Virus record (IMG/VR): IMGVR_UViG_2778261165_000015
Source: a virus
Taxonomy: Duplodnaviria; Heunggongvirae; Uroviricota; Caudoviricetes
Strand: one strand, 5' to 3'
DNA length: 4,766 nt
Shown: piece after piece, positions 1 through 4,766 of the stretch
Layout of the letters: each line of letters begins with the position of its first letter
Position numbering within the stretch: position 1 is the first letter of the stretch
The notes under the pieces: model-generated
Databases searched by the model: none
What the model was told of the DNA's origin: nothing
What the model saw: the letters and a program-made list of their open reading frames with translations, nothing else
Program-made: the position numbers and the translations under genes

Positions 1-110
1 TGGAGATCACTGAATAACAAAATGAGTCAAAAGTGATCTCCATCGATGTTATTCAGCGATCTGTTCAAATGTTATTACCCGATCTCGATGGAAGTTATTG
101 AGTGATCTCC
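1..110. repeat. Array of GATC-containing 15-bp repeats (consensus GTTATTnnnYGATCT): direct copies at 48-62, 71-85 and 94-108 phased at exactly 23 bp, one inverted copy at 4-18, and a 9-bp inverted repeat GGAGATCAC / GTGATCTCC at 2-10 / 33-41
   Basis: Read directly: gttattcagcgatct (48-62), gttattacccgatct (71-85), gttattgagtgatct (94-108); agatcactgaataac (4-18) is the reverse complement of the consensus. GATC at 5, 36, 58, 81 and 104. The 23-bp period is not a multiple of 3, so this is a DNA-level signal, not a protein repeat. Confidence 0.8.
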
Positions 111-1851
111 TTTCATGAAAATACGCATCTTTAGCTAACTCTGGTAATTTAGCTTGTGCTTCCATTCGTTCAGGTGTAGAAGCTAATCTCTCATAACCTG
201 CATAGATAGCACTACCAGCTAATAACATATTCATAGGGTTTAGTCTTGATGGTTTCCCATTCTTTCTATTCACGTTATCCGCTGTAGTATCAGCGACCTG
301 ACCTAATCTTGTGATAGCAGTCATAAGCCCGTAAATACTTCTGGTTACACCAACAACTTTATTCACAGCAATAACACCAGCCAAGACTTTTAAACTATTA
401 ATCAAGCCAGAACCTAAAGCATCAACAACTTTCTTTTGTTCATCGGTTAAACCACGGTAAGCCAATGTCACCTCATCAAAGAAACCTCTCACCTTGTAAG
501 AAATATCAGTCAATGAATCGACACCATGTGACATATCAGTCATCAAGCTACCAAGAGATTCACCAAGACTTTTACCACTTCCACCTAAACTGTTTAAAAG
601 CGTTGTTAGGCTTCTTGTGAAATCTTGAAGACCATTTTCAGAACCTCTGAAGATACTATCAAGCGTGGTATTCCAAGAGTTTTTCAGGTTCCCTAGTTGT
701 GCCTGAGTACTTTCTGAAATAGTTTTCCAGCCACCTTTAGCGGTGATTTGTTTATTCAGTTCCTGAGTGACCTTCTGAAGAGTATCGGCAGATTTTAAAG
801 CCCCCTTCTTCATGGCATCAAATAGCTCTTGTTCATTCCTTCCGATTGCTTTAGCGAATACCTGAACCATACCAGGAACAGCTTCAGCTAATTGCCCCTT
901 AAGCTCTTCAGCCATAACCTGACCCTTACCAGCCATCTGTGATAATGCTGTCAGTGCTCGCTTAATCTCTTCTTCACTTCTCCCCATCAGACGAGCATAG
1001 CCAATCATATTTTTAAAAAGTTCTTCAGAACCTTGAATGCCCATAGACTCTTTAGCTGAAGCACCAAAACCAGCAAACTGTGATTGCAGTTCAGCGATAT
1101 CTAAACCCGTTGTTTGAGCTAATGACTTTGTGAACTCTTTTACTTGAACTGCATCTTTATCAAATACGAAATCAATTGAACGTTCAGCACTTGCACGCTG
1201 TAAACCAATTTCCATAATCTTCTGATAACTGGCTAATACAGCCTGCATTGAGATAAATGCACCTGCTGTTTTAACTGCCGCTGAAGACAGGTTATCAAGA
1301 CTATTAGCTGCTCTGTCACCATTAATGCTGGTGGATGTATGACCTTTAGCTTTAGCAATTGCTTCTCTGACTGAAGCATTTAACTGAGCTAACTTCTCAT
1401 TGAATTTTGAAGAATCCATTGACCCAGCTTTAGCAGATAGCCCGTAAAACTGAGATTTGATGTATTTCTGCAAAATAGGGTCGAAGCCTTTCAGCTTGCT
1501 CATGTTAGCCTGATAAGCTGCTCTTACAGCTCGGTCACCAGTATTTACTCTTGGCTGTCTTGGCTGTCTAAGTGGCTTTAAAGTATCCTCAATTTCCGTT
1601 TTAATCTTAAACGCTTTAGTGTTTTTAAGACGCTGCTCAATCTTGGAAACAGTTTTATCGACATTCTTTTCCATTAGTTTGAGAGAATCATTTAAAGGCG
1701 TAGGATTCACTTTAAACGCCTTATTCAATCGCTTCTCAATTCGTGATGCTACCTGCATCGTTTGTTTCTCGGCTTTTTCCAGACCTTTTAAAACTTTCTG
1801 AGAGTTAAAACTTAACTCAATCAGAAAATCATCAACTTTAAACTGTGCCAT
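49..1851 (-). CDS. Phage tail tape measure protein, lambda gpH-like (600 aa)
   Basis: 600-aa ORF with TAA stop at 49-51. N-terminus MAQFKVDDFLIELSF resembles the lambda H N-terminus as I recall it (MAEPVGDLVVDLSL). Central segment ALTALSQMAGKGQVMAEELKGQLAEAVPGMVQVFAKAIG matches the tape-measure-domain signature from memory. Helical, Ala/Leu/Lys/Gln-rich composition and a hydrophobic C-terminal stretch fit the family. SD AAGAGGTG lies 11 nt upstream of the ATG; an in-frame TGA two codons upstream fixes the start. Not verified by search. Confidence 0.75.
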   Translation of the reverse strand: MAQFKVDDFLIELSFNSQKVLKGLEKAEKQTMQVASRIEKRLNKAFKVNPTPLNDSLKLMEKNVDKTVSKIEQRLKNTKAFKIKTEIEDTLKPLRQPRQPRVNTGDRAVRAAYQANMSKLKGFDPILQKYIKSQFYGLSAKAGSMDSSKFNEKLAQLNASVREAIAKAKGHTSTSINGDRAANSLDNLSSAAVKTAGAFISMQAVLASYQKIMEIGLQRASAERSIDFVFDKDAVQVKEFTKSLAQTTGLDIAELQSQFAGFGASAKESMGIQGSEELFKNMIGYARLMGRSEEEIKRALTALSQMAGKGQVMAEELKGQLAEAVPGMVQVFAKAIGRNEQELFDAMKKGALKSADTLQKVTQELNKQITAKGGWKTISESTQAQLGNLKNSWNTTLDSIFRGSENGLQDFTRSLTTLLNSLGGSGKSLGESLGSLMTDMSHGVDSLTDISYKVRGFFDEVTLAYRGLTDEQKKVVDALGSGLINSLKVLAGVIAVNKVVGVTRSIYGLMTAITRLGQVADTTADNVNRKNGKPSRLNPMNMLLAGSAIYAGYERLASTPERMEAQAKLPELAKDAYFHERRSLNNFHRDRVITFEQIAE

Positions 1852-2978: not shown

Positions 2979-3003
2979 TATTTTTTTCCTCTAAGTGTGG
3001 TTA

Positions 3004-3081
3004 TTTCTTAATAGAGCACCTTCAACGCCAATACACTTAGAAGATGACTTAACGATTTATTAAAGATGCTCTATTAAGAAA
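3004..3081. repeat. Perfect 15-bp inverted repeat (TTTCTTAATAGAGCA) with arms at 3004-3018 and 3067-3081, 48-bp spacer
   Basis: Read directly; the reverse complement of 3067-3081 equals 3004-3018 exactly. Lies between hairpin H1 and the RBS of the 236-aa gene. Confidence 0.75.
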
Positions 3082-3110
3082 AGCCCTAAACATAATCTGT
3101 GAAGGGCTTT
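3071..3110 (-). terminator. Terminator-like hairpin H1 (AAAGCCCT / AGGGCTTT stem, 15-nt loop) followed by UUUUCUU on the minus strand
   Basis: Stem 3080-3087 / 3103-3110. The U-tract overlaps one arm of the 15-bp inverted repeat. Short stem, so termination is likely partial. Confidence 0.4.
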
Positions 3111-3170
3111 GAAGGTTTGCTTTATAACGTTAACGAAGTTTCAGGAAAAACTTTCTTTAAAAGCTCTGTT

Positions 3171-3209
3171 TAAAAACTCTTAAAGAAAGCCCTAATCATG
3201 AGTTAGGGC
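3171..3209 (-). terminator. Rho-independent terminator H2 (GCCCTAA / TTAGGGC stem, 7-nt loop) followed by UUUCUUUAAGAGUUUUU
   Basis: Perfect 7-bp stem at 3189-3195 / 3203-3209 with a U-rich tract on the minus strand. Shares the AAGAAA(A)GCCCTAA module with H1. Confidence 0.55.
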
Positions 3210-3255
3210 AAAGCTGTAAAGGATTCAAACGAATGAACAAAGACTTTTTGAGATA

Positions 3256-3280
3256 GCCTCTCAAGTTATATAAGAGAGGC
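3256..3280 (-). other. Stem-loop H3 (GCCTCTC / GAGAGGC, 11-nt loop) within the leader; no adjacent U-tract
   Basis: Perfect 7-bp inverted repeat read directly; flanks are not U-rich on either strand, so probably not a terminator. Confidence 0.4.
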
Positions 3281-3377
3281 CATGACGAAAAGCATTGCAC
3301 CTTTCCAACTCAGAATATCCATCCATCGGATTATTGAAAATATGATTTTAGGAAAAATTGCTCTTCCTATATATACA

Positions 3378-3406
3378 ATTATGTCATGCTCAAGGTTATT
3401 TGTCAA
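3378..3406 (-). promoter_or_regulatory. Near-consensus sigma70-type promoter: -35 TTGACA, 17-bp spacer, extended -10 TGaCATAAT
   Basis: Minus strand reads gctgTTGACAaataaccttgagcaTGaCATAATtgtatat. -35 is 6/6, spacer 17, -10 is 5/6 with a TG at -15/-14. Predicted start site near 3371, transcribing toward the terminators and the 236-aa gene. Confidence 0.55.
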
Positions 3407-3431
3407 CAGCTTTTAACAGATTGATAACAAT

Positions 3432-3497
3432 CTATACTTTAATAGACGCACCTGCAATCATACCAACCAATACAAAACAGATAATCACCAATTCCAT
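3432..3497 (-). CDS. Candidate 21-aa hydrophobic micro-protein (MELVIICFVLVGMIAGASIKV), a single predicted transmembrane helix
   Basis: Not in the supplied ORF track (too short). ATG overlaps the upstream TAA stop (TAATG). SD AAGGTGG sits 7 nt upstream. A 17-residue uninterrupted hydrophobic core is flanked by E and K. TAG stop at 3432-3434. Confidence 0.4.
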   Translation of the reverse strand: MELVIICFVLVGMIAGASIKV

Positions 3498-3820
3498 TAA
3501 TGCACCACCTTCGAATCCGTCACCAAAATATTGTCAGCGTACAAAATTGCTATAGCTGCCTTGAGATATCTTTCAGGGCTAACGCTGTATTTGTTCGTTT
3601 GCTCAATAACCAATCTTTTCATATTACTGTCTGTAATTGGTAACATCATTCGAGGCTCGTTAAACTCCACCGAGTGAATAAAGTCAGAGATGCTTTCCGC
3701 ATTATCAGCCATTAACTCTAACAACTTATCAAAGTCAATGCTAACACCTACATCAGTGAAAGCCTGAATCATCATGGCGGTGTCGGTATCAATAAAAATC
3801 TGTAGTGGGAAATTATTCAT
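3497..3820 (-). CDS. Hypothetical protein (107 aa from ATG 3820; the track's longer 144-aa form starts at 3931)
   Basis: ATG at 3820 has an AGGA SD with 8-nt spacing. The extra 37 codons upstream (3821-3931) are GC-richer with atypical codons (CCG, CTC, AGG), lack a good SD and overlap an inverted repeat, so the shorter start is preferred. No cysteines, no recognised motif. Confidence 0.55.
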   Translation of the reverse strand: MNNFPLQIFIDTDTAMMIQAFTDVGVSIDFDKLLELMADNAESISDFIHSVEFNEPRMMLPITDSNMKRLVIEQTNKYSVSPERYLKAAIAILYADNILVTDSKVVH

Positions 3821-3899
3821 TTTTAAAATCCTATAAAAACACATCTTAAATCTGCCAAAATAACCATTCTGAGGCCAGTAACCATGCGGGTTACAGAGG

Positions 3900-3946
3900 G
3901 AGTGAGACACCTTAGTAATAGGGTAGCTCATCTTTGAGTCTCACTC
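3900..3946. repeat. 9-bp inverted repeat GAGTGAGAC / GTCTCACTC with a 29-bp spacer, between the 128-aa and 107-aa genes
   Basis: 3900-3908 and 3938-3946 are exact reverse complements. No U-tract follows, so it looks like an operator or RNA structure rather than a terminator. Confidence 0.45.
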
Positions 3947-3958
3947 ATTCTCACAGAC

Positions 3959-4345
3959 TTACACAGACGCTTTAATCTTGTAGTATTGACTACGTGATAA
4001 GCCGTATTTCTCAGAAATATAACTTTGTGATTGTCCTTTGGTGATTGCATCAATGATTAAATCTTTATCGTATCTGTTACCGTTGGCTTTGTGCTTGTCA
4101 CTATTTTTAATAGAGTTGAAGTTCTCCATTAATTCAATGGCGTCTTTAAGGTCGCTTTCGTAAGCATAATCAAAACCTCTGATAAACTCGAAATCACCAT
4201 TATCTTTTTGTGCTTCAGCCCAGATATCAAATCTTGAGGCTAATTGCTGGTGGGTAAACTTGGGTTTATTGGTTTGTGTTACGTCTTTCCAGACTTTACC
4301 GTCAAATCTTACCAAATGGTCACGATGTTTATAAAAGTCATACAT
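3959..4345 (-). CDS. Hypothetical DNA-binding protein (128 aa) with a C-terminal resolvase/Hin-type helix-turn-helix
   Basis: Strong SD GGAGG 4 nt before the ATG, which overlaps the upstream stop (TAATG). C-terminus KGQSQSYISEKYGLSRSQYYKIK resembles the Hin/Gin recombinase HTH (GIGVSTLYRYF pattern). The ~95-aa N-terminal part is too short and lacks the serine-recombinase catalytic signature. Confidence 0.7.
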   Translation of the reverse strand: MYDFYKHRDHLVRFDGKVWKDVTQTNKPKFTHQQLASRFDIWAEAQKDNGDFEFIRGFDYAYESDLKDAIELMENFNSIKNSDKHKANGNRYDKDLIIDAITKGQSQSYISEKYGLSRSQYYKIKASV

Positions 4346-4581
4346 TAAACCTCCATCGCTAATTTGTGAATTTTGATACTTAGTAACCTTGCTAAATCCA
4401 GTCCAAAAGCATTTAAAGATTTCAGACTATCAAGGTCATCTTTCTTAATCCTGACATGGTGTCTTGCTGCCTCTAAACGACTATTAAGCAAATCCTGCTC
4501 GTTAATATCACGGTTAATTGCAAGCTTCATCACTGCTGAGTGCTGAGAGATCCCCTCATAATTTCCCCAAAGCGTAACCAT
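4345..4581 (-). CDS. Hypothetical protein (78 aa as drawn; start uncertain)
   Basis: ORF whose stop overlaps the start of the 128-aa gene. No convincing SD before ATG 4581 or the internal GTG/ATG at codons 17/18. The first 26 nt overlap the upstream partial ORF. Confidence 0.45.
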   Translation of the reverse strand: MVTLWGNYEGISQHSAVMKLAINRDINEQDLLNSRLEAARHHVRIKKDDLDSLKSLNAFGLDLARLLSIKIHKLAMEV

Positions 4582-4766
4582 GTGTGAATAAATTTTGAGC
4601 TAGTAGGGTTGCAGCCACGAGTAAGTCTTCCCTTGTTATTGTGTAGCCAGAATGCCGCAAAACTTCCATGCCTAAGCGAACTGTTGAGAGTACGTTTCGA
4701 TTTCTGACTGTGTTAGCCTGGAAGTGCTTGTCCCAACCTTGTTTCTGAGCATGAACGCCCGCAAGC
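4556..4766 (-). CDS. 3' end of a gene whose 5' part lies beyond the window (69 codons visible, C-terminus ...LFTHGYALGKL)
   Basis: Stop-free minus-strand frame from the window edge to TGA at 4556-4558, not in the supplied track because no start is in the window. GC content here is visibly higher (~47%) than the rest. Confidence 0.45.
   Translation of the reverse strand, partial: LAGVHAQKQGWDKHFQANTVRNRNVLSTVRLGMEVLRHSGYTITREDLLVAATLLAQNLFTHGYALGKL

What the first reader, a model, noticed from the sequence alone, without database searches (positions are those of the whole stretch)
3821..3960. Inverted repeat and ambiguous start between the 128-aa and 107-aa genes
The track's 144-aa ORF probably over-extends. 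The extra 37 codons have atypical composition and contain a 9-bp inverted repeat with a 29-bp loop directly after the stop of the HTH protein gene. A TTGGCA-17-TATAGG promoter-like element also lies just before ATG 3820. This could be an operator for the adjacent HTH protein.
Basis: inference. Interest (0 to 1): 0.35.

Follow-up and report, generated by a model that had tools for sequence, protein, structure and literature searches.

The report
Non-coding spacer holding a widespread mobile-element box
The 138 bases between two small genes of an E. coli chromosomal island are non-coding: they hold a conserved hairpin and, next to it, a 22-base box that recurs almost unchanged in unrelated phages and beside plasmid replication origins, so it is probably a DNA assembly site, not a simple repressor operator.

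Summary
The inverted repeat is real: arms 3900-3908 and 3938-3946, 29-nt loop. The downstream gene starts at ATG 3820 (107 aa). The 37-codon extension is open in only 9 of 59 distinct homologous upstream sequences, while an AGGA Shine-Dalgarno before ATG 3820 is present in all. TTGGCA-17-TATAGG is not conserved, and its TATAGG overlaps that AGGA.

The repeat stays paired in 30 distinct relatives. One allele class replaces three base pairs on both sides, and this class also carries a different allele of the upstream 128-aa gene.

Three bases after the repeat lies a box, CTGTAACCCGCATGGTTACTGG (3875-3896). Near-identical copies occur in at least 31 unrelated phage contig families, 34 GenBank phages and 2149 plasmids. 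The copies are unannotated and usually flanked by element-specific repeats. In three unrelated plasmid replicons the box lies 0-150 nt from the Rep iterons. It matches no Rfam family and no paper by sequence.

Best reading, at moderate to low confidence: a composite cis-acting DNA site made of island-specific protein-binding repeats plus a box shared across mobile elements, most like a replication-origin core. The operator idea is only partly supported, and the box's function is unproven.

The parts
3959..4345 (-). 128-aa gene upstream of the spacer. It has a weak C-terminal three-helix HTH (residues about 94-125) and belongs to a family seen essentially only in Escherichia.
   Evidence: ORF; PGAP CDS. 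Pfam HTH_28 E=0.003 and HTH_7 E=0.04, both below the curated cut-offs. Only 18 protein clusters in 5.8 billion. AF2 pLDDT 76 with helices 94-102, 107-114 and 118-125. Foldseek found nothing significant; the best weak hits are resolvase DNA-binding domains.
3895..3951 (.). The finding's inverted repeat: perfect arms 3900-3908/3938-3946, extended 14-nt arms 3895-3908/3938-3951, 29-nt loop.
   Evidence: It is 100% paired in 30 distinct type A+B relatives, with three pairs changed on both sides (GAGTGAGAC/GTCTCACTC versus GAGTTGCAC/GTGCAACTC). The loop varies at several sites. As single-stranded DNA the 84-nt stretch folds with z = -3.3 (- strand) and -3.7 (+ strand).
3939..3954 (-). Two direct copies of GTGAGA(A/C), 10 nt apart (3954-3949 and 3944-3939). 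A third, inverted copy lies at 3902-3908. These are candidate half-sites for an island-specific DNA-binding protein.
   Evidence: Read directly. The type B spacer has the analogous (A/T)TGCAC x2 plus an inverted GTGCA. No statistical test was done; this is inference.
3875..3896 (-). Conserved box CTGTAACCCGCATGGTTACTGG, 3 nt 3' of the repeat. It contains the small hairpin GTAACC-CGCAT-GGTTAC (3878-3894).
   Evidence: The box is nearly invariant across type A and B spacers. The pattern CTGTAACCNGCRTGGTTACTGG hits 21 IMG/VR stretches. The 3' form CCGCRTGGTTACTGGGTTT hits 65 stretches in 31 families with unrelated flanks. It also occurs in 34 GenBank phage records, 2149 plasmids and 484 of 5426 E. 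coli genomes. No Rfam family matches.
3860..3868 (-). AATGGTTAT, a second copy of the box's ATGGTTA word, 18 nt downstream of the first.
   Evidence: The same GAATGGTTRT word follows the box, after an inserted hairpin, in T4-like contigs L017, L018, L023 and L036.
3821..3859 (-). AT-rich end of the spacer.
   Evidence: Polymorphism of TTGGCA and TATAGG is shown; conservation of AGGA in all four spacer types.
3821..3931 (-). The 37-codon 'extension' of the 144-aa ORF: not coding.
   Evidence: It is open and in frame in only 9 of 59 distinct homologous upstream sequences, and PGAP starts the gene at 3820. The CNPHGYW 'peptide' is only the translation of the box: in phage PAJU2 the same frame opens with TGA, and in phage LPKP33 it stops right after the box.
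3497..3820 (-). 107-aa gene; true start ATG 3820. Probably a tandem ribbon-helix-helix DNA-binding protein.
   Evidence: The N-terminus M-x5-Q-[IV]-x-[IV]-D-x-DTA is conserved in about 70 loci. AF2 gives pLDDT 68 and a strand-helix-helix unit twice. The best Foldseek hits are chains E-G of the F-plasmid relaxosome (prob 0.92, E 0.011) and archaeal-virus CopG/AvtR-like RHH proteins (prob up to 1.0, E 0.007-0.1). None reaches E 0.001.
3432..3497 (-). Unannotated 21-aa hydrophobic micro-ORF whose ATG overlaps the stop of the 107-aa gene (TAATG).
   Evidence: present in every homologous locus examined, in two main sequence classes.

Best explanation
The stretch 3821-3958 is a non-coding spacer inside a - strand operon of small DNA-binding proteins. 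The operon order is an RHH-like 78/92-aa gene, the 128-aa HTH-like gene, the spacer, the 107-aa tandem-RHH-like gene starting at ATG 3820, and a 21-aa membrane peptide.

The spacer is a composite cis-acting DNA site with three parts:
1. Island-specific repeats: the 9-bp inverted repeat, whose arms carry a GTGAGAC word present as two direct copies and one inverted copy.
2. A 22-nt box, 3 nt further on, shared almost letter for letter with unrelated phages, satellites and plasmids.
3. An AT-rich stretch that runs into the ribosome-binding site.

By analogy with the other carriers, the island's own small DNA-binding protein(s) would bind the repeats. The 128-aa protein is the first candidate, because its allele changes with the arm sequence. 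The box would be read by something the carriers' hosts share: the named hosts are all Proteobacteria, and no protein is co-encoded across the carriers. The assembly most resembles a replication-origin core, that is, an initiation or priming site.

Shown: the start codon, the non-coding status of the spacer, conservation and compensated change of the repeat, the distribution of the box, and its flanking repeats and plasmid-origin contexts.

Inferred: that proteins bind here, which ones, and that the site acts in replication.
For: Start and non-coding status.

The repeat:
- It is paired in 30 of 30 distinct sequences.
- Three pairs are compensated in the allele class that also carries a diverged 128-aa gene (55% identity; the putative recognition helix reads RSQYYKIK versus RRQYFYVK).

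The box is far beyond chance:
- 21 and 65 exact-pattern stretches in IMG/VR, where I estimate at most about 1 by chance.
- 31 families whose flanks share no 16-mer.

The box behaves as a primary-sequence element, not a hairpin or a gene:
- Variants break both possible stems without compensation.
- The plasmid versions do not fold.
- Stop codons interrupt the only conserved reading frame.

Flanks: 25 of 31 families carry a repeated 8-mer within 90 nt on either side, against 60 of 155 control windows (Fisher p = 2e-5). Ten of 31 carry three or more copies, against 9 of 155.

Plasmid origins, with three unrelated Rep families:
- pHB2b: the box lies 4 nt from three 21-bp iterons, followed by the rep promoter and a Rep_3 gene.
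- IncHI2: the box lies a few nt from the first 21-bp-phased iteron cluster upstream of repHI2.
- Pseudomonas monteilii plasmid: the box lies between a Replicase/PriCT_1 rep gene (276 nt away) and iterons (about 150 nt away).

Phages and satellites:
- The box lies about 150-170 nt past VapE-type or related primase-helicase genes, and antisense at the 3' end of a Prim-Pol gene.
- Tandem iteron-like repeats abut it in L031, L112 and L019.

Other points:
- No protein is shared among carriers.
- All orientations relative to neighbouring ORFs occur. This argues for DNA-level action and against a sense-mRNA element.
- The neighbouring island genes look like small DNA binders.
Against: - No replication initiator, primase or helicase is recognisable in the island, and there is no DnaA box near the spacer.
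- The island version of the box lacks the GGGTTT tail of the commonest form. Its flanking repeats are an inverted pair on one side, not tandem iterons.
- Spacer types C and D of the same island family lack the box and carry other structured sequences. The box is therefore dispensable for the island family, or is replaced by something else.
- In several phages the box sits upstream of terminase genes or inside early operons. Both positions fit other DNA or RNA roles.
- In the island the box and hairpins lie in the sense strand of an operon, 55 nt before a start codon, so an RNA-level role cannot be excluded there.
- No factor that would read the box has been identified. It does not fit the DnaA, IHF, sigma-54 or Ter consensus as I recall them. 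It shares only TACTG with the phage G4 primase start site.
- The control windows include coding DNA, which inflates the contrast somewhat.
Confidence: 0.4

Rival explanations
1. RNA-level element. The spacer is a structured intercistronic leader of three or four hairpins ahead of the Shine-Dalgarno. It would control processing, stability or translation of the 107-aa gene's message, and the inverted repeat would be the first RNA hairpin.
For: - The spacer lies in the sense strand of an operon, and the upstream genes overlap (ATGTATG at 4345).
- The 151-nt RNA folds at -38.1 kcal/mol, z = -2.45.
- RNAalifold gives four hairpins. Helix 1 has three compensated pairs and shows G-U substitutions in its extension and in the small box hairpin.
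- Type C spacers carry a different long hairpin with variable inner hairpins at the same place.
- In the D3-like Pseudomonas phages the box is also sense and intra-operonic.
Against: - The compensated pairs come from a single event and are equally expected for a symmetric DNA site.
- Across families the box occurs antisense to both neighbours in several cases: L016/L024, L018, L023, L074.
- Its stems are not maintained, and it lies in non-transcribed-looking plasmid origin regions.
- There is no terminator and no Rfam match.
Confidence: 0.25
2. The repeat is an operator at which the adjacent 128-aa HTH protein represses a promoter (TTGGCA-17-TATAGG) for the 107-aa gene.
For: - The repeat arms co-vary with the 128-aa allele.
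- The protein has a weak C-terminal HTH.
- The hexamers are present with a 17-nt spacer.
Against: - The arms are 38 bp apart centre to centre and lie 42-88 bp upstream of the putative -35.
- The promoter is not called by the scanner and is not conserved.
- A transcript from it would be nearly leaderless and would lose the universally conserved AGGA.
- The HTH evidence is below the family thresholds.
Confidence: 0.08
3. Another DNA transaction site: a packaging (cos/pac-like) or transfer-type (oriT-like) site. Small accessory proteins, such as the TraY-like tandem-RHH 107-aa protein, would bind repeats around a conserved core that is cut or recognised by a helper phage's or plasmid's machinery.
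For: - The box lies about 280 nt upstream of terS in Jedunavirus and Acinetobacter phages.
- It lies 0.7-3 kb upstream of terminase-like ORFs in 8 loci.
- In Erwinia phage Fifi44 it is 377 nt from the left end of the linear record.
- The layout 'inverted repeat, then a conserved sequence a few nt 3' of it' is the classic layout of oriT nick regions (textbook knowledge).
- The 107-aa model resembles relaxosome chains that I take to be TraY.
- The island has tail genes but no capsid or terminase, so it would need a helper.
Against: - The plasmid cases are clearly rep/iteron contexts, not transfer or packaging regions.
- Large T4-like contigs carry two or three copies each, which does not fit a unique cos site.
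- No terminase or relaxase family is shared.
- The structural match is below significance and rests on a low-confidence model.
Confidence: 0.12
4. A passive recombination joint. The hairpin and box are a conserved linker at which gene cassettes are swapped, like the promoter/stem-loop cassettes of T4-type phages, with no function of their own in the island.
For: - Upstream genes differ between spacer types (128-aa, 140-aa, HNH, others), while the 107-aa gene is constant.
- Recombinants mix the type A hairpin with type B downstream sequence and the reverse (L209, L194, L178, L215).
- Cassette edges carry inverted GTCTCAGAC/GTCTGAGAC words.
- PeSL elements of T4-like phages show a stem-loop immediately upstream of a conserved block, an SD and a start codon, and they mediate shuffling (PMC4122927).
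Against: - A joint alone does not explain near-identity of a 22-26-nt box across 31 unrelated families and three plasmid replicon types.
- It does not explain the enrichment of flanking repeats.
- It does not explain the maintained pairing of the repeat.
- PeSLs are conserved because they are sigma-70 promoters, which this box is not.
Confidence: 0.1

Closest known systems
Iteron-type replication origins of plasmids and phages (pSC101, P1, F and lambda-like layouts; textbook knowledge)
   Same: - Element-specific repeated binding sites sit beside a shared host-read element and an AT-rich stretch, next to or inside the gene of a small DNA-binding protein.
- In pHB2b, IncHI2 and a Pseudomonas plasmid the box sits 0-150 nt from the Rep iterons.
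   Different: - The shared element is not a DnaA box or an IHF site by consensus (my reading; for DnaA boxes).
- The island has no recognisable Rep.
- Its repeats are an inverted pair plus one direct copy, not a tandem iteron array.
Primase-dependent single-strand initiation signals (phage G4 oric type) and the RSF1010 ssiA/ssiB sites
   Same: - The sequence is strand-asymmetric, near origins, and combines a hairpin with a 5'-CTG-3'.
- In G4 the primer starts at the T of CTACTG just 3' of a hairpin. The box's most invariant word is TTACTGG at the 3' foot of its small hairpin.
- L017 has two inverted copies about 380 bp apart, like the oppositely oriented ssiA/ssiB of RSF1010 (PMC8567376).
   Different: - Only TACTG is shared with G4.
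- The box's hairpins are not conserved across families.
- Priming was not tested.
Lambda nut sites (conserved boxA plus phage-specific boxB hairpin); HK022 put RNA
   Same: - The architecture is bipartite: a variable, element-specific hairpin next to a sequence conserved because a host factor reads it.
- It lies inside early operons in the D3-like Pseudomonas phages.
   Different: - Orientation relative to transcription is not constant.
- The box shows no similarity to boxA.
- HK022 was not among the blastn hits. The put RNA is a two-stem, roughly 70-nt structure (PMC9378689).
PeSL promoter/stem-loop cassettes of T4-like phages (PMC4122927, PMC2839356)
   Same: - The order is stem-loop, then a conserved block, then SD and start codon.
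- Recombination break points fall at the element.
- Several copies occur in T4-like contigs.
   Different: - The PeSL conserved block is a sigma-70 promoter (TTGACA-N17-TATAAT and variants).
- The box has no such hexamers, and its most conserved part would be the 'spacer'.
Palindromic operators of HTH repressors
   Same: A dyad-symmetric sequence lies next to the gene of a putative HTH protein, and arm sequence and protein allele change together.
   Different: - The half-sites are separated by 29 bp.
- There is no conserved promoter.
- The site lies downstream of the regulator's gene, in mid-operon.

Membership tests
Protein-coding N-terminal extension (144-aa form) | The reading frame is kept open and in frame in relatives | tested here: not met
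   Only 9 of 59 distinct upstream sequences keep it; frame-shifting indels and stops are common within the same spacer type.
Protein-coding N-terminal extension (144-aa form) | A ribosome-binding site lies ahead of the upstream ATG, and not of the downstream one | tested here: not met
   AGGA(G) lies ahead of ATG 3820 in all 59 sequences. Nothing comparable precedes ATG 3931, which lies inside the hairpin loop.
Sigma-70 promoter | -35 and -10 hexamers close to consensus, with the invariant -10 positions A2 and T6 | tested here: not met
   TATAGG lacks T6 and is not called by the scanner.
Sigma-70 promoter | The hexamers are conserved in relatives | tested here: not met
   TTGGCA alternates with TTAAGA and TTTATA; TATAGG alternates with TAGAGG and CATAGG.
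Intrinsic terminator | A G+C-rich hairpin with a short loop, followed by a U tract | tested here: not met
   The loop is 29 nt and no T run follows; the scanner finds none here.
HTH-repressor operator | Dyad half-sites spaced to fit one dimer (about one to two helical turns) | tested here: not met
   The arms are 38 bp apart centre to centre.
HTH-repressor operator | The site overlaps or adjoins a promoter | tested here: not met
   There is no conserved promoter in the spacer.
HTH-repressor operator | A cognate DNA-binding protein is encoded nearby, and site and protein co-vary | tested here: inconclusive
   The arms and the 128-aa allele change together, but they are physically adjacent, so linkage is trivial. 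The HTH hits are below the Pfam cut-offs.
HTH-repressor operator | Binding is demonstrated | not testable with these tools
   This needs EMSA or footprinting.
Known RNA families (Rfam 15) | A covariance-model match | tested here: not met
   No match at E<=1 in the window, and none at E<=5 or E<=1 in 15 other loci carrying the box. No tRNA or tmRNA was found.
Structured RNA or ssDNA hairpin (the box itself) | Base pairs are maintained by compensatory change across carriers | tested here: not met
   In 50 distinct copies, the pairs of either possible stem that are free to vary are often unpaired (14/50 and 29/50 paired for the outer pairs of the small hairpin), and the outer pairs of the alternative stem do no better than slid controls (0.48 versus 0.41-0.49).
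Structured hairpin (the finding's inverted repeat) | Base pairs are maintained by compensatory change | tested here: met
   All cells are paired (100%) and three pairs changed on both sides. This is one evolutionary event, and it is equally expected for a symmetric DNA site.
Iteron-type replication origin | An initiator (Rep) gene lies adjacent | tested here: inconclusive
   No Rep, primase or helicase family hit was found for any island protein. The neighbours are small putative DNA binders of unknown role.
Iteron-type replication origin | Repeated initiator-binding sites | tested here: inconclusive
   GTGAGA(A/C) occurs as two direct copies and one inverted copy. There is no tandem array as in pHB2b or IncHI2.
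Iteron-type replication origin | An AT-rich unwinding region and DnaA boxes | tested here: inconclusive
   The stretch 3821-3865 is AT-rich. No DnaA box with at most 1 mismatch lies near it.
Iteron-type replication origin | Supports autonomous replication | not testable with these tools
   This needs a cloning test in a conditional-origin vector.
G4-type primase-dependent priming signal | A hairpin adjoining a 5'-CTG-3' start on the template strand | tested here: met
   GTAACC-CGCAT-GGTTAC is followed by TGG, giving CTG at 3878-3876. This is a weak criterion because the trinucleotide is common.
G4-type primase-dependent priming signal | Sequence relatedness to G4 oric blocks | tested here: not met
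   Only TACTG is shared.
G4-type primase-dependent priming signal | DnaG/SSB-dependent primer synthesis from the site | not testable with these tools
   This needs an in vitro priming assay or an M13 origin-defective plaque assay.

The most novel reading that the evidence does not exclude
The 22-26-nt box (consensus C[TG][GC]NAA[CG]CCGC[AG]TGGTTACTGG, usually followed by GTTT) is an undescribed core element of replication origins. It would be shared by otherwise unrelated proteobacterial plasmids, phages, satellites and this yecE island, and it would be read by a host replication factor such as a primase or loader entry site. On this reading the finding's spacer is the origin of an uncharacterised satellite-like island, whose own small HTH/RHH proteins bind the flanking repeats.
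Probability: 0.3. Interest if true: 0.75.

Novelty: new variant of a known kind. Interest (0 to 1): 0.5.

Why it matters
For annotation, the result fixes the start of a widespread E. coli island gene at 107 aa and shows that the extension is an artefact of a conserved DNA word that happens to be open in frame.

More broadly, one short asymmetric sequence is kept almost unchanged in at least 31 unrelated phage contig families, in about 2000 plasmids and in an E. coli island. It is usually surrounded by each element's own repeated binding sites, and in three different replicon types it lies within 150 nt of the Rep iterons.

If it is a host-read origin or priming element, it would be:
- a simple sequence marker for locating origins in uncharacterised phages, satellites and plasmids;
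- a handle for identifying the factor that reads it;
- a possible common vulnerability of many mobile elements, including IncHI2 resistance plasmids.

If it turns out to be something else (packaging, transfer or RNA), it is still a conserved mobile-element signal that current RNA and protein libraries do not cover.

Tried and rejected
- **tRNA/tmRNA:** none found.
- **Rfam at permissive thresholds,** on the window and 15 other loci: nothing at the site.
- **Intrinsic terminator or sigma-70 promoter at the site:** not found, not conserved.
- **A conserved micro-peptide 'CNPHGYW'** read through the box: rejected. Stops flank it in PAJU2 and LPKP33, loop variants are non-synonymous, and no start codon is present.
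- **tRNA 3'-end or attP remnant:** only L136 has a tRNA abutting the box. A separate group of contigs has a fully symmetric version acting as a tRNA terminator. The island's box is internal, far from the recombinase.
- **Pairing with a core-genome RNA:** long complementarity of about 17 nt or more is unlikely, because only 484 of 5426 E. coli genomes contain any match.
- **HK022 put RNA and lambda nut:** no sequence match.
- **G4 oric homology:** only TACTG is shared, and the G4 relatives in the collection are too similar to define conserved positions.
- **RSF1010 ssiA:** different layout; its start is a GTG triplet 3' of the hairpin.
- **PeSL cassettes:** different conserved block.
- **DnaA boxes:** none near the spacer.
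- **IHF, Fis, sigma-54, sigma-E/ECF, Ter, dif/cer, LexA and invertase hix/gix consensus sequences,** compared by eye from memory: none fits.
- **A protein family shared by carriers of the box:** none by all-against-all blastp.
- **Hairpin covariation in the box:** absent.
- **Literature search by sequence strings:** no relevant paper.
- **Function of the 128-aa protein:** no significant result from NCBIfam, PDB sequence search, PDB fold search or PHROGs.
- **Orientation analysis from mechanical ORFs:** noisy in GC-rich contigs, so it is used only qualitatively.
Full report
**Setting.** The window is part of an E. coli chromosomal island, and all of its genes lie on the - strand.
- Genes, in window order: a tape-measure gene (49-1851), 69-aa and 236-aa ORFs, the 107/144-aa ORF (3497-3820/3931), the 128-aa ORF (3959-4345) and a 78-aa ORF cut by an IS10 end at 4553-4766.
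- The 1-kb stretch around the finding occurs in 414 of 5426 complete E. coli genomes.
- An intact copy (L002) is a roughly 12.3-kb element inserted in yecE. It carries a large serine recombinase, a Dit-like tail protein, a tape-measure protein, a Dam-type methylase and small unknown genes. No capsid, terminase or replication gene is recognisable.

**The observation.** The inverted repeat is present at 3900-3908/3938-3946 with a 29-nt loop, and it extends to 14-nt arms at 86% complementarity.
- A perfect repeat of this size arises in about 2% of shuffles of the 140-nt region.
- TTGGCA-17-TATAGG is present at 3858-3830, but it fails the scanner because the second hexamer lacks its final T.

**Start codon.** PGAP annotates the gene from ATG 3820 in two genomes, and only 2 of the best 120 protein clusters are 144 aa long. 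I collected homologous loci from IMG/VR and metagenomes and compared 59 distinct upstream sequences.
- The N-terminus beginning at ATG 3820 and an AGGA(G) a few bases upstream of it are present in all.
- The 37-codon extension is open in only 9.
- In 17 of 27 sequences of the same spacer type a stop lies within 8 codons upstream, through 1-nt indels or TATAGG to TAGAGG.

**Promoter.** In the alignment of 30 distinct relatives, TTGGCA alternates with TTAAGA and TTTATA, and TATAGG with TAGAGG and CATAGG, independently of the rest. The constant part is the AGGA. A transcript from that promoter would begin about 3 nt before the ATG and would lose this site. I read TATAGG as a ribosome-binding site, not a -10 element.

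**The repeat in relatives.** The upstream region comes in four types.
- Type A is the window's type.
- Type B has a diverged, 139-141-aa version of the upstream gene (55% identity). Its repeat reads GAGTTGCAC...GTGCAACTC, again with a 29-nt loop: three positions are changed on both arms with pairing kept. On the alignment the helix is paired in every sequence, while the loop varies at several sites.
- Types C and D have other upstream genes (an HNH_3 endonuclease among them), lack this repeat, and carry other structured sequences. Type C has an 11-bp stem closing about 90 nt.
- The compensated change is a single event. It is expected equally for an RNA or ssDNA hairpin and for a symmetric protein-binding site whose protein has changed, so it proves selection on the pairing or symmetry, not the mechanism.

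**Repeated words.** Each type also has extra copies of the arm word. Type A has GTGAGA(A/C) twice in direct order 10 nt apart, plus the inverted copy. Type B has (A/T)TGCAC twice plus an inverted GTGCA. This looks like a small set of binding sites.

**The box.** Three nucleotides 3' of the repeat, types A and B share a nearly invariant block that begins CTGTAACCCGCATGGTTACTGG (window 3875-3896). It is the best conserved part of the locus. An exact 19-mer search of IMG/VR returned it in contigs unrelated to the island and of very different G+C. Its distribution:
- A 20-base pattern returned 21 stretches, and a pattern built on the 3' half plus GGGTTT returned 65. I estimate at most about one by chance for either.
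- After removing relatives, 31 families remain whose flanks share no 16-mer.
- blastn found it in 34 GenBank phage records: D3-like Pseudomonas phages, Erwinia and Pantoea Chaseviridae, Klebsiella Jedunavirus and an Acinetobacter phage. No feature is annotated under the match in most of them.
- It also occurs in 2149 plasmids and in 484 E. coli genomes, 326 of the 519 places lying on plasmids.
- Nothing in Rfam matches, and text searches for the sequence found no relevant paper.

**What kind of element the box is.**
- It is not a gene. In PAJU2 the only conserved frame opens with TGA, and in LPKP33 it stops straight after the box.
- It is not a conserved hairpin. Variants such as CTGAAACC, CTGGAAGCC, CTGTAGGCC, GGTTAC to GAATAC and GGTTAC to ATTTAC break the small stem without compensation. 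In 50 distinct copies neither possible stem does better than slid controls. The plasmid versions do not fold better than shuffles.
- It is a strand-asymmetric primary-sequence motif with consensus C[TG][GC]NAA[CG]CCGC[AG]TGGTTACTGGGTTT. The island version has TGGCC in place of TGGGTTT.
- It occurs in every orientation relative to neighbouring genes.
- No protein family is shared among carriers. Whatever reads it is more likely a host component, or the DNA acts on its own.

**Context of the box: flanking repeats.** The flanks are enriched in element-specific repeats. Twenty-five of 31 families have a repeated 8-mer within 90 nt, against 60 of 155 control windows (p = 2e-5). Ten of 31 have three or more copies, against 9 of 155. 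Many arrays are obvious by eye, for example CAAGTTGG x3 with an inverted CCAACTTG x2, AATGGAAC x3, TGTGACAC x2 on each side, and inverted TCTCTACCCT arrays.

**Context of the box: plasmid origins.** Three plasmid replicons with unrelated initiators carry it close to their iterons.
- pHB2b: box, 4 nt, three 21-bp iterons, promoter, Rep_3 gene.
- IncHI2: the box lies a few nt from the first 21-bp-phased iteron cluster upstream of repHI2, with DnaA-box-like words further on.
- A Pseudomonas monteilii plasmid: a Replicase/PriCT_1 rep gene, 276 nt, the box, about 150 nt, then iterons.

**Context of the box: phages, satellites and other sites.**
- It lies about 150-170 nt beyond VapE-type and related primase-helicase ORFs, and antisense at the 3' end of a Prim-Pol gene.
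- It lies next to tandem 19-bp or 9-bp-phased repeats.
- It lies upstream of terS/terL.
- It lies inside early operons of D3-like phages.
- It occurs in two or three copies in T4-like contigs, once as an inverted pair between divergent genes.
- In KPC plasmids it sits in the loop of a long inverted repeat beside what I recognise, from memory, as a Tn1721-type terminal repeat.

**Neighbouring proteins.**
- The 128-aa protein has only sub-threshold HTH hits, a narrow Escherichia-only family, a medium-confidence model ending in three helices and no significant fold match. Resolvase DNA-binding domains rank first, weakly.
- The 107-aa protein gives a low-confidence model (pLDDT 68) with a strand-helix-helix unit twice. 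Its best matches are chains E-G of the F relaxosome, which I take to be TraY, and archaeal-virus CopG/AvtR-type tandem ribbon-helix-helix proteins. Foldseek probabilities are high but E-values are only 0.007-0.1.
- The 78/92-aa gene upstream also reads as ribbon-helix-helix by eye.
- The spacer thus sits among small probable DNA binders.

**Interpretation.** The best-supported account is a composite DNA site: island-specific repeats, a shared box and an AT-rich stretch. It most resembles the core of a replication origin.

**What weakens this account.**
- No replication protein is recognisable in the island.
- Types C and D lack the box.
- The phage positions near terminase genes fit a packaging role.
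- In the island the sense orientation 55 nt before a start codon leaves an RNA role open. The RNA fold has z = -2.45, with four predicted hairpins.
- A priming-signal mechanism is attractive because the most invariant word, TTACTGG, places a 5'-CTG-3' at the foot of a hairpin, as at the G4 primer start CTACTG. The resemblance stops there.

**Confidence.** About 0.4 for the origin-type DNA site, 0.25 for an RNA leader, about 0.1 each for a packaging/transfer site and a passive recombination joint, and under 0.1 for the simple operator-plus-promoter model.

**Verdict.** As written, the finding is a correct call of an over-extended ORF plus a real, conserved inverted repeat. The promoter is not supported, and 'operator' is too narrow. 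The unexpected result is the adjacent box, a mobile-element signal that I could not find in Rfam or in the searchable papers. Its association with iterons is measurable here; its function needs experiments.

Noticed in passing
window 3432-3497 (- strand): An unannotated 21-aa hydrophobic micro-ORF (MELVIICFVLVGMIAGASIKV). Its ATG overlaps the TAA of the 107-aa gene (TAATG). A 19-25-aa counterpart is present in all of the roughly 70 homologous loci, in two main sequence classes, so it is probably a real, translationally coupled membrane peptide.
   Followed up: partly
window 2979-3434: A 455-nt non-coding stretch. It holds a 15-bp perfect inverted repeat (3004-3018/3067-3081), a terminator-like hairpin (3209..3189, - strand) and the best sigma-70-like promoter of the window, TTGACA-17-CATAAT with TG (3406..3378, - strand). 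It probably marks the real transcription boundary between the small-gene operon and the 236-aa/tail genes.
   Followed up: no
window 4553-4766 and 4345-4581: An IS10 end (99.5% identity to the IS10 end in phage record CL707) truncates the ribbon-helix-helix-like gene. That gene is 92-96 aa in intact islands, so the window's 78-aa ORF has an artificial start.
   Followed up: partly
window 1-127: This stretch is 100% identical to a stretch in Escherichia phages PhiR12_1 to PhiR12_4 and carries nested inverted repeats (1-11/32-42 and 10-19/47-56). It looks like the end of an insertion element or MITE that cuts the 3' end of the tape-measure gene.
   Followed up: no
L002 5619-17930 (NZ_CP069528): The intact island is a compact, roughly 12.3-kb element in yecE. 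It has a large serine recombinase, only two recognisable virion genes (Dit-like and tape measure), a Dam-type methylase with a C-terminal resolvase-like HTH, and a 1.6-kb non-coding stretch (15389-17003). It may be a tail-gene-carrying satellite or a decayed prophage.
   Followed up: partly
L005, L007-L011, L013 and many metagenome loci: the 200 nt upstream of the 107-aa gene: The type C spacer replaces the repeat and box with a long hairpin, CTCTCAATCGC...about 90 nt...GCGATTGAGAG. Its inner GGGU...ACCC hairpins vary between loci while keeping their pairing. An HNH_3 endonuclease gene lies upstream. This may be a structured RNA or DNA element in its own right.
   Followed up: partly
Alignment A2 columns 118-137; type C/D spacers: The variable cassette between the upstream gene and the 107-aa gene is bracketed by inverted words. 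GTC[TC][CG]AGAC follows the upstream stop codon, and GGTCTGAGA[CT] precedes the SD. In L014 and L228 the latter forms a perfect hairpin, ATAGGTC-TGA-GACCTAT. Recombinant spacers mix type A and type B halves.
   Followed up: no
L226 (pECAZ159_2) about 3930-4100, and about 800 KPC-associated plasmids: A copy of the box (CTCTGTAACCCGCATGGTTGCTGGG) sits in the roughly 60-nt loop of a roughly 30-bp imperfect inverted repeat. This lies beside a truncated ISKpn6 transposase gene and a sequence I recognise, from memory, as a Tn1721/Tn1722-type 38-bp terminal repeat.
   Followed up: no
L032, L037, L044 and about 25 other contigs of sample 3300045988; L136 493-598: A fully symmetric version (GCCAGTAACCATGCGGGTTACTGGC followed by a T run) serves as the terminator 11 nt after a tRNA gene in one group of phage contigs. 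In L136 the box abuts the 3' CCA of a tRNA on the other strand. The relation to the asymmetric box is unclear.
   Followed up: no
L245, about 10 nt after the box: A perfect DnaA-box word (TGTGGATAA) follows the box within about 10 nt in one GC-rich phage contig, whose flanks carry CTGTCAC/GTGACAG repeats.
   Followed up: no
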